Shown piece after piece: positions 46,098 through 47,553 of a stretch of 64,000 nt of DNA. Source of the DNA: the human T2T-CHM13v2.0 reference genome, Homo sapiens; assembly GCF_009914755.1 (NCBI RefSeq), contig NC_060929.1. One strand, 5' to 3'. The notes below the pieces were generated by a model. The model saw only the letters and a program-made list of their open reading frames with translations, ran no database searches and had not been told where the DNA came from. Each line of letters begins with the position of its first letter. Within the stretch, counting starts at the first letter, position 1. The position numbers were made by a program, and so were the translations under genes.

Positions 46098-46467
46098 AAT
46101 CAATATTGTGAGTTTGGTTATAATTTAATTGGAAAAGTAAAAATGAGAATTATAGCAACTTTCTAGATGAGAGTCTTAAGTCTATTATATTAAGGAAAAA
46201 TAAAGACCTTTTAGGATCATATTTTTCTGGATAAGAGTATAGTAACAGCATCTATGAAAGTTGATAGCATTGCCACAAATATATTATCATGAAAATTCCA
46301 ACAATCAGAACTGATTAGCTTATAAAAATATTCTTAGATTTTTTTTTAGGTATAAGAAAACAGTGTTAGATTTGCTAATGTTTAGAATCGCAGAAATACT
46401 TGGTTAAAGACAATTCAGTAACAACCCTTGAAAAATTACCCTATCTTTTTTTTTAATTATTCTGCAG

Positions 46468-46540
46468 TGATCGAGAAGCTAATGAAAGAAAAAAGAAAGA
46501 TGAAGAGAAATCAAGTAGCAAGCCCTCAAATAATGCAAAG
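46468..46540 (+). CDS. SPINK5: SPINK5 exon 28, linker (73 nt)
   Basis: ctgcag|TGATCGA...GCAAAG|gttatt; DREANERKKKDEEKSSSKPSNNAK. Confidence 0.97.
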
Positions 46541-46625
46541 GTTATTTATTAAAGGATACCAAAATAACCATTTTACTTTTCACCTTCAGAATTTTGCATT
46601 CTTCTCCAGCTTTGGGAATAATAAA
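46541..46625 (+). terminator. SPINK5: Intron-28 read-through (V-I-Y-stop) and intronic polyA signal, giving the short 13-domain LEKTI isoform
   Basis: GTT ATT TAT TAA at 46541-46552; AATAAA at 46620-46625; matches the recalled 916-aa isoform. Confidence 0.85.
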
Positions 46626-47226
46626 TATATTAATATCTTAACTTCAAAGAAAATTGATTTTTCTTGTCTTGTCACTTTGTATCATAACAAGATTTTTGGG
46701 GGTTTGGGGGTTTGATACCTTTTTTGATTTTGTAGAAAATTCTCTGAGAGTGTGTGTCTATTATTGTTTTAGTCTTTCCTCCTTGGGAGAAATATGGATT
46801 GAAAAGTAGAGGGTAACATTCTTTACCAACTCAACTGCATGCTTATCTTTGACACTTTAAGTGTGAAACAAGGCTTTGGGTAGCTTGCTGATGTTTATTT
46901 TAATAATTCAGGCAATATAAACCAATCTAAGTCTCCCTTTTAGCTTCCCTTCTGTTTTCACCAGATGATTCTATCAGCATTAAAGAATCAGCAGTGTGCA
47001 TGCGTGATGCTTTCTTTTCTATTTATTTTTCAAGACTACAAAGAAGACATCTTTATTCAATTCTTTAACAGTAACAATCACATTTGTAGAGTTAGATCCC
47101 TGAGCAATTGTCCTTTTGTCAAAAGCATGCTTCATGGGGAAAATGGGGAAAGGAAGGATGGATGAACGGGAGAAAAAAACAGGAAGGTCTATCAAGTGTT
47201 GTTTTATGTTTCCCTACATTTTTCAG

Positions 47227-47316
47227 GACCAGTGCAGACAGGTTCAGAATGAAGCGGAGGATGCAAAATTTAGACAACCTGGGCGTTCCTTGGCCTCTGT
47301 TGCCAGGATGAGTACA
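47227..47316 (+). CDS. SPINK5: SPINK5 alternative 90-nt cassette exon of the long isoform (30-aa insert between D13 and D14)
   Basis: tttcag|GACCAGTGC...AGTACA|gtgagt; DQCRQVQNEAEDAKFRQPGRSLASVARMST; phase 0-0. Confidence 0.92.
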
Positions 47317-47425
47317 GTGAGTCTGAGCCCAGAGCTAAGAGAGGACTTCCTAAAACCAAGTTTGAAGAAATCACTAAGCCAAAAAGGGACAAAGCCATGT
47401 TCACTTTCCCTTTCTCATTTTCTAG

Positions 47426-47553
47426 GATGAGTGCAGTGAATTTCGAAACTATATAAGGAACAATGAACTCATCTGCCCTAGAGAGAATGACCCAGTGCAC
47501 GGTGCTGATGGAAAGTTCTATACAAACAAGTGCTACATGTGCAGAGCTGTCTT
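47426..47553 (+). CDS. SPINK5: SPINK5 exon 29, domain 14 (128 nt)
   Basis: ttctag|GATGAGTGC...GTCTT|gtgagt; DECSEFRNYIRNNELICPRENDPVHGADGKFYTNKCYMCRAV. Confidence 0.98.

What the first reader, a model, noticed from the sequence alone, without database searches (positions are those of the whole stretch)
47221..47445. The long-isoform cassette exon looks assembled from two decayed Kazal-exon starts
Seen: three acceptor+Kazal-start motifs in 200 bp. (a) cag|GAC CAG TGC AGA CAG GTT CAG AAT GAA GCG GAG GAT GCA AAA TTT (47227) aligns without gaps to exon 17's first 15 codons at 26/45 nt, keeps Cys1, and has D-A-K-F in the N-G-K-L position. (b) Inside the cassette, a pyrimidine-rich tract then cag|GATGAGTACAGTGAGTCT (47307) nearly copies (c) exon 29's tag|GATGAGTGCAGTGAATTT (47426); D-E-Y-S-E-S versus D-E-C-S-E-F, 15/18 nt. 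The cassette's donor GTGAGT is therefore the mutated S-E codons of copy (b). Just after it, GAGCCCAGAGCTAAGAGA (EPRAKR) recalls the exon 20 linker. Inference: the exon arose from abortive domain duplications and gives long LEKTI one unpaired cysteine, which could cross-link.
Basis: partly seen in the sequence, partly recalled or inferred. Interest (0 to 1): 0.7.

Follow-up and report, generated by a model that had tools for sequence, protein, structure and literature searches.

The report
Exon built from two domain relics
The known optional exon of the skin protease inhibitor LEKTI (SPINK5) matches the front ends of two inhibitor-domain exons and likely arose from two broken copies; it is kept in protein models across placental mammals and adds one leftover cysteine that would be free to cross-link the protein (untested).

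Summary
Confirmed in the main. 47227-47316 is the known 30-aa cassette of long LEKTI (Q9NQ38-3). Its first 45 nt and the acceptor-like start at 47307 are the only profile-HMM hits outside annotated exons at E<1 in 64 kb (E 0.012, 0.016; next 1.8). Orthologous proteins strengthen both: the cassette occurs in 50 other placental genera, four keep N-G-K-L where human has D-A-K-F, and the usual ending A-R-I-S-A implies that copy (b) once read D-K-C-S-E with its Cys intact. The donor is a latent GT present in most real Kazal exons; using it gives a 90-nt, frame-keeping exon. The lone Cys is kept in 50 of 51 genera (1 change against a mean of 8.4 per site), makes the Cys count odd and lies in a predicted disordered linker. 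Marsupials carry a fuller decayed domain (two Cys) at the same place; no intact extra domain was found. The 'exon 20 linker' resemblance is not supported. Cross-linking is untested. The isoform and a splice QTL are published; its origin and free Cys were not found in 10 searches, but key papers were unreadable.

The parts
47207..47226 (+). Acceptor (a): pyrimidine tract + CAG of the cassette exon
   Evidence: RefSeq exon start 47227; score 12.7 on a matrix from the window's 29 acceptors (range 5.9-19.7)
47227..47316 (+). Cassette exon of long LEKTI (Q9NQ38-3), 90 nt, phase 0-0, 30 aa
   Evidence: Annotation; peptide from it detected in plasma (PMC12695657); seen in 61 of 122 orthologous protein models, 50 placental genera
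47227..47271 (+). Relic (a): first 15 codons of a Kazal-type exon, in frame (Cys1 to the N-G-K-L position)
   Evidence: 18.9 bits, 0 of 300 null; nt 19-45 alone 0 of 3000; bat, cow and aardvark cassettes 0 of 2000 shuffles even without D-Q-C
47233..47235 (+). The lone cysteine codon (Cys1 of the lost domain)
   Evidence: Present in 50 of 51 genera; 1 parsimony change against a cassette mean of 8.4; odd Cys totals
47272..47286 (+). Middle of the cassette, origin not assigned
   Evidence: Not covered by either alignment; residues 16-30 do not fit the domain profile in frame
47287..47322 (+). Relic (b): a second acceptor (tract + CAG) and Kazal-exon start, read out of frame as the end of the cassette
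   Evidence: 27.2 bits against acceptor+start, null maximum 14.9; acceptor score 13.5
47317..47322 (+). Cassette donor GTGAGT, formed by the Ser4-Glu5 codons of relic (b)
   Evidence: 8 of 12 real Kazal exons have GT at the same place, 6 as GTGAAT; donor score 6.9 against at most 4.0 at those GT sites
47325..47342 (+).
   Evidence: 193 of 1000; Kazal register nt 19-45 p about 0.06-0.08; 105 of 300
47426..47553 (+). Exon 29 (domain 14), the intact Kazal exon (c)
   Evidence: Annotation; Pfam Kazal_1 34.1 bits
46468..46540 (+). Exon 28 (linker after domain 13), upstream splice partner with a weak donor
   Evidence: Donor score 3.9, third lowest of 28

Best explanation
The cassette is likely a chimeric relic exon, joined from the in-frame front of one decayed Kazal exon and the out-of-frame acceptor and first 10 nt of a second, and it likely works as an optional, predicted flexible spacer whose one conserved, unpaired cysteine would form a disulfide with another chain. 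Shown: the two similarities, the latent donor, the 90-nt phase 0-0 length, the odd Cys count and the conservation. Inferred: real Kazal exons run phase 0 to 2 and need a linker exon to restore the frame; once the linker was lost, only a 3n exon could survive, and acceptor (a) plus the latent GT of copy (b), 80+10 nt apart, supplied it. This happened before Afrotheria and Boreoeutheria split. Selection then let the Kazal-specific residues drift but kept Cys1, whose partner cysteine was lost. Inferred and untested: in the oxidising secretory route that thiol pairs with a second LEKTI chain or another protein, so that exon inclusion (tuned in people by rs2052534) sets how much of the C-terminal LEKTI fragment is covalently linked. 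My odds: two-relic origin 0.85; Cys selected as a residue 0.7; intermolecular disulfide as its job 0.4.
For: (both relics far above background; (b) also without the donor hexamer). N-G-K-L exact in 4 of 51 genera (two bats, aardvark, golden mole), Gly13 in 18 and Lys14 in 37 of the 40 cassettes parsed at 30 aa; ending Ile28 35, Ser29 34, Ala30 22 of 40. The variants at the last three residues are mostly one base from ATA, AGT, GCA, which in frame (b) reads D-K-C-S-E (inference from proteins; profile score rises from 11.4 to 16.7, true exons 14.6-25.8). Cys 1 change, site rate 0.27 against cassette mean 1.49, neighbours 6 and 12 changes. Cys after residue 25 is 64 in two models without the cassette, 65 in owl monkey, rabbit and golden mole, 61 in mouse and rat; owl monkey cassette lies in a pLDDT<50 coil; three marsupial proteins have a decayed domain with Cys1-x13-Cys2 here (0 of 2000 shuffles). 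PMC12695657: the exon is translated, secreted and under a splice QTL.
Against: No orthologous DNA was available, so ancestral codons are inferred from proteins. Asp1 is as conserved as the Cys (1 change), so closeness to the splice site may contribute. Gene models that show the exon are a biased sample; 9 carnivore and 3 xenarthran models lack it and the elephant seal copy has lost the Cys. The cassette as a whole changes as fast as the fastest linker (8.4 against 6.2-8.8 changes per site). Mandrill and pig have a second Cys in the cassette, and mouse-eared bat and aardvark models have an extra Cys elsewhere, making totals even. The marsupial insert scores no better on the cassette profile than ordinary marsupial domains and does not hit human intron 28: orthology rests on position alone. 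The long transcript is about 40-fold rarer than the main one in human keratinocytes (PMC8959125). No binding or disulfide evidence was obtained.
Confidence: 0.6

Rival explanations
1. Same origin, but the exon works only as a spacer or processing/glycosylation segment between domains 13 and 14; the Cys is kept by splicing constraint or is simply capped.
For: Predicted disorder; linker-like rate of change; Asp1 equally conserved; conserved Ser residues; losses or extra Cys in some models.
Against: Gln2 and Arg4 on either side change 6 and 12 times while Cys changes once, so it is not a block of fixed nucleotides; no conserved R-x-x-R site (Arg20 in 14 of 40).
Confidence: 0.25
2. The Cys acts inside the cell or within the chain: thiol-mediated ER retention or disulfide shuffling with domain 13 or 14 that changes secretion or processing of the long form.
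For: Odd Cys count; it sits in a D-x-C motif like the start of the neighbouring domains. Mechanism is general knowledge, not tested.
Against: A cassette peptide is found in plasma, so the form is secreted (PMC12695657); the model shows no folded contact (low confidence).
Confidence: 0.12
3. The cassette is one Kazal exon with internal deletions that kept its own native gtgagt donor; copy (b) is a coincidence.
For: 13 of 28 donors in the window are gtgagt, 9 of them on 128-nt exons; a weak match of 47287-47310 to exon columns 71-93 (15.0 bits, 6 of 300).
Against: No match to the end of the Kazal exon beyond the hexamer (97 of 300); the acceptor+start alignment of the same bases scores 27.2 bits; native donors are phase 2, this one phase 0; (b) is significant without the hexamer.
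Confidence: 0.06
4. An ordinary exonised intron stretch whose likeness to Kazal exons is chance or recent convergence.
For: The human Glu codon in frame (b) is recent; Pfam gives no hit for the cassette.
Against: the likeness rises, not falls, in distant mammals.
Confidence: 0.02

Closest known systems
LEKTI long isoform (SPINK5l, UniProt Q9NQ38-3)
   Same: This is that exon: a 30-aa insert after linker 13; peptide and splice QTL rs2052534 reported (PMC12695657 passages; PMC8959125 passage).
   Different: Nothing differs; what is added is its origin, its depth in mammals and the conserved odd Cys, which I did not find in the papers I could search.
LEKTI four-cysteine Kazal-like domain (128-nt exon; Pfam Kazal_1 PF00050)
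   Same: Acceptor, D-x-C start, spacing to N-G-K-L in (a); acceptor and D-x-C-S-E in (b).
   Different: One Cys only, no reactive loop, no C-x-x-C, no Pfam hit, predicted disordered: a relic, not a domain.
New alternative exons from tandem exon duplication (named as a main route in PMC2592719, passage)
   Same: An alternative exon derived from duplicated neighbours in the same gene.
   Different: Not a duplicate that alternates with its parent: a fusion of two fragments, the second read out of frame, with a donor taken from inside a coding motif, and at least as old as the split of Afrotheria and Boreoeutheria.
Marsupial SPINK5 insert between domains 13 and 14 (P0118, P0121, P0123)
   Same: Same position; decayed domain starting D-K-C; no C-x-x-C.
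   Different: 64-65 aa, keeps Cys2 and part of the reactive-loop motif (even Cys total); no specific sequence link to the placental cassette could be shown.

Membership tests
LEKTI-type Kazal domain | Four cysteines spaced C-x13-C-x18-C-x2-C | tested here: not met
   One Cys in 48 of 51 cassettes, two in 2, none in 1; marsupial insert has the first two only
LEKTI-type Kazal domain | Reactive loop C-T-R-E-N-D-P after Cys2 | tested here: not met
   Residues 16-30 score no better than shuffles in 10 of 10 cassettes tested; partly kept in marsupials (0-1 of 2000)
LEKTI-type Kazal domain | Pfam Kazal_1/Kazal_2 match | tested here: not met
   0 families for the cassette and for frame (b); exon 29 control 34.1 bits
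LEKTI-type Kazal domain | Folded helix/hairpin structure | tested here: not met
   Owl monkey model: residues 895-936 pLDDT<50, coil, while flanking domains reach 70-83; prediction only
LEKTI-type Kazal domain | Protease inhibition | not testable with these tools
   Needs an assay
Relic of a Kazal exon start (homology) | (a) acceptor plus first 15 codons in register | tested here: met
Relic of a Kazal exon start (homology) | (b) acceptor plus first 5-6 codons, independent of the donor hexamer | tested here: met
Relic of a Kazal exon start (homology) | (b) continues as a Kazal or linker exon past nt 18 | tested here: inconclusive
   Kazal register nt 19-45: 252 and 183 of 3000; rest 105 of 300; linker 193 of 1000
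Conserved coding cassette exon | Symmetric 3n length, translated, conserved across orders | tested here: met
   90 nt; 43 of 51 cassettes are 30 aa; peptide in plasma
Orthologue of the marsupial decayed domain | Sequence closer to the marsupial insert than to other domains | tested here: not met
   Insert scores -1.7 to 1.1 on the cassette profile; best ordinary marsupial domains 9-13; no hit
Intermolecular disulfide / free-thiol module | Odd cysteine in an exposed segment of a secreted protein | tested here: met
Intermolecular disulfide / free-thiol module | Reduction-sensitive covalent partner | not testable with these tools
   Needs non-reducing gels or disulfide mapping

The most novel reading that the evidence does not exclude
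A dead inhibitor domain was recycled, before the placental orders split, into a splice-controlled thiol anchor: its orphan Cys covalently ties the C-terminal LEKTI fragment to itself or to an epithelial scaffold, it is the standard form in mice and rats, and the common variant rs2052534 changes kallikrein control in skin and airway by changing how much LEKTI is anchored.
Probability: 0.2. Interest if true: 0.65.

Novelty: new variant of a known kind. Interest (0 to 1): 0.4.

Why it matters
The long isoform has been known since 2006 with no clear role in the papers I could read. Its origin points to one residue, the orphan Cys, as the likely functional element, and that is cheap to test. It matters because a common variant shifts inclusion of this exon in skin and oesophagus, and SPINK5 variants are associated with lung function and pancreatitis (PMC12695657). 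All 10 mouse-like rodent proteins retrieved carry the exon, so mouse models may mainly express the form that is minor in people. It is also a clear example of an exon whose donor comes from a latent site inside a duplicated coding motif read out of frame.

Tried and rejected
1. My own by-eye idea that (b) is a nearly full-length decayed Kazal exon running to about 47405: no signal (105 of 300). 2. Native-donor single-exon model: no signal (97 of 300). 3. Exon 20 linker resemblance: not significant; the residue before R-A-K in that linker is S in 14, P in 5, L in 3 of the 22 linkers the pattern caught. 4. An intact extra domain at this place: none in the 122 proteins (7 rows too short or anchored on the wrong domain); models with 16-18 domains have their extras upstream. 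5. Specific orthology of the marsupial insert: not shown. 6. Other copies in the human genome: only the self match. 7. A second ungapped hit at 46338 (26/45 to exon 9 only, stops in frame, no nhmmer hit) is taken as chance. 8. A region-limited protein search returned only two bat proteins. 9. The automatic cassette/skip classifier mis-anchored several rows and was not used; counts come from reading the table. Three cassettes mis-parsed were corrected. 10. The position of rs2052534 could not be found: the supplementary table and figures were too large to read. 11. No complex prediction was run: a single Cys in a disordered linker is not something it can judge. 12. Earlier findings were not available.

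Full report
Observation. The window holds SPINK5 exons 5-33; thirteen 128-nt exons encode Kazal-type domains and alternate with linker exons. The stretch 47227-47316 is an annotated alternative exon of 90 nt, 30 codons, ending at a gtgagt donor. A profile HMM from exons 7-29 (12 exons, exon 5 left out) recovers the true exons and then only these two places at E<1 (0.012 and 0.016; next 1.8). Because any donor resembles part of the Kazal start, I rescored (b) without the donor hexamer: 4 of 124,422 positions reach its score over -3..+10 (16 without exon 29 in the profile) and 0 of 124,388 over -20..+10. The claimed likeness of 47325-47342 to the exon 20 linker is ordinary (193 of 1000 random intron stretches).

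What is known. This is the insert of the long LEKTI isoform Q9NQ38-3. PMC12695657 (passages read; three supplementary PDFs searched, the tables and other files too large) reports a cassette peptide in plasma and a splice QTL, rs2052534, in skin and oesophagus. PMC8959125 (passage) says the main transcript is about 40-fold more abundant. PMC11000662 (passages) lists 145/148 kDa precursors and 65/68 kDa fragments; that the 3-kDa step is this exon is my inference. PMC2967472 (passage) gives 14 domains for mouse. PMC3014083, PMC11096370 and PMC12908204 (passages) said nothing on the insert. Ten searches listed no paper on the exon's origin or its free cysteine (in I saw only the top 10-20 rows). 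Tartaglia-Polcini 2006 and Deraison 2007 were not held, and Galliano 2005 and Fortugno 2011 were seen only as references, so prior mention cannot be excluded.

Orthologues. Three protein searches (the last listed 120 of 166 hits) gave 122 proteins. Reading the segment between domains 13 and 14, 61 placental models from 50 genera carry the cassette, in Afrotheria, Laurasiatheria and Euarchontoglires; 2 marsupials carry a longer insert; 7 rows were uninformative; most others skip it, which says little because the skipped form is a normal isoform. With human, 43 of 51 cassettes are 30 aa. At the human D-A-K-F position two bats, aardvark and golden mole have exactly N-G-K-L; Gly13 is found in 18 and Lys14 in 37 of the 40 cassettes tabulated. 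Against a profile of 1055 real domains, residues 4-15 of bat, flying fox, cow and aardvark cassettes beat all 2000 shuffles, human only 82 of 2000; residues 16-30 fit in none of 10. So relic (a) is real, older and better preserved outside primates, and ends at about codon 15.

Relic (b). The usual ending is A-R-I-S-A (Ile 35, Ser 34, Ala 22 of 40; human M-S-T). The observed variants are mostly one base from ATA, AGT and GCA, so the ancestral DNA likely read, in frame (b), D-K-C-S-E (D-Q-C-S-E if the Ile codon was ATC). This is inference from proteins. Scored with those two states, (b) rises from 11.4 to 16.7-17.9 bits, inside the range of true exon starts (14.6-25.8), against a best of 6.3 among 2887 other AG sites. 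The human Tyr and the human Glu at codon 2 are therefore both derived, and codon 5 of exon 29 changes 17 times on the tree, so (b) is a generic Kazal start and not demonstrably a copy of exon 29. The last 46 bases align to acceptor+start at 27.2 bits (null maximum 14.9) and not to the end of a Kazal exon (97 of 300); a weaker rival alignment to mid-exon scores 15.0 (6 of 300). Eight of 12 real exons have a GT at the same place, six as GTGAAT, one base from GTGAGT. Beyond nt 18, (b) has no firm homology.

How the exon likely arose. Kazal exons are 128 nt and end in phase 2; a relic that lost its linker exon could survive only as a 3n exon. Acceptor (a), 80 nt of relic and tract, and 10 nt of (b) up to its latent GT give 90 nt. 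Three marsupial proteins have at this place a 64-aa insert that fits the domain profile over columns 1-25 with Cys1 and Cys2 correctly spaced (0 of 2000 shuffles). This suggests that a decayed extra domain stood here in the therian ancestor, but the insert is no closer to the cassette profile than ordinary marsupial domains and does not hit human intron 28, so orthology rests on position only. No intact extra domain was seen.

The cysteine. It is present in 50 of 51 genera (elephant seal lacks it). On a tree of 50 genera it changes once, against 8.4 per cassette site and 6 and 12 at its neighbours; only Asp1 is equally fixed; domain cysteines do not change. Mature-chain Cys totals are 64 in two models without the exon, 65 in owl monkey, rabbit and golden mole, 61 in mouse and rat, 60 in two marsupials; mandrill, mouse-eared bat and aardvark models are even through an extra Cys (17 proteins counted). 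A model of the owl monkey protein from 50 sequences places the cassette in a coil with pLDDT about 27. That Cys1 pairs with the last Cys in four-Cys LEKTI domains is recalled, not from a call; that partner is absent here. An exposed, conserved, odd cysteine in a secreted protein most often forms an intermolecular disulfide (general knowledge), so I commit to that at about 0.4, with a plain spacer (0.25) and intracellular or intrachain thiol effects (0.12) as rivals. Gene-model bias may inflate the conservation, and carnivore (0 of 9 plus the seal) and xenarthran (0 of 3) models give no support.

Verdict. It is not a Kazal domain but a fusion of two relics of one. It is a variant of exon birth by tandem duplication (PMC2592719, passage). 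Interest 0.4: a modest evolutionary finding that yields one sharp, testable prediction tied to a common human splice variant.

Noticed in passing
P0118, P0121, P0123, between domains 13 and 14: Marsupial SPINK5 has a 64-65 aa insert that is a decayed domain keeping Cys1 and Cys2 and part of the reactive-loop motif, followed by a linker-like stretch; the two Cys might pair with each other.
   Followed up: partly
P0108, P0110-P0113, P0116, P0117, P0119, P0120, P0122: All 10 muroid rodent proteins retrieved include the cassette, so it may be the main or only form in mouse and rat.
   Followed up: no
Carnivore models P0002, P0017, P0025, P0050, P0054, P0075-P0078, P0021: Nine carnivore models skip the exon and the elephant seal copy is degraded and lacks the Cys: possible loss in Carnivora.
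   Followed up: no
P0115 (camel): The model joins domain 13 to domain 14 through L-M-S-A, which fits a predicted 10-nt exon from acceptor (b) to the cassette donor and would mean camel (b) reads D-E-C-S; gene prediction only.
   Followed up: no
window 46538-46546 and 46541-46552: Exon 28 has a weak donor (score 3.9, third lowest of 28); read-through adds V-I-Y and a stop, matching the published short isoform with three extra residues.
   Followed up: partly
window, nt 11-16 of exons 13, 15, 17, 19, 27, 29: All six Kazal exons with GT-GA at this place use GAA for Glu5, while the two that use GAG lack the GT; possible avoidance of a cryptic donor, too few to be significant.
   Followed up: partly
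window 47287-47309: Acceptor (b) scores as well as the used acceptor (a) (13.5 against 12.7) although no annotated transcript uses it; use would shift the frame.
   Followed up: partly
P0014, P0015, P0026, P0044, P0045, P0090: Ground squirrels, marmot, two bats and mole have 16-18 domains through repeats in the upstream half: domain gain and loss is ongoing in SPINK5.
   Followed up: no
window 46338-46382: A 26/45 ungapped match to exon 9 only, with stops in frame and no profile hit; taken as chance.
   Followed up: yes
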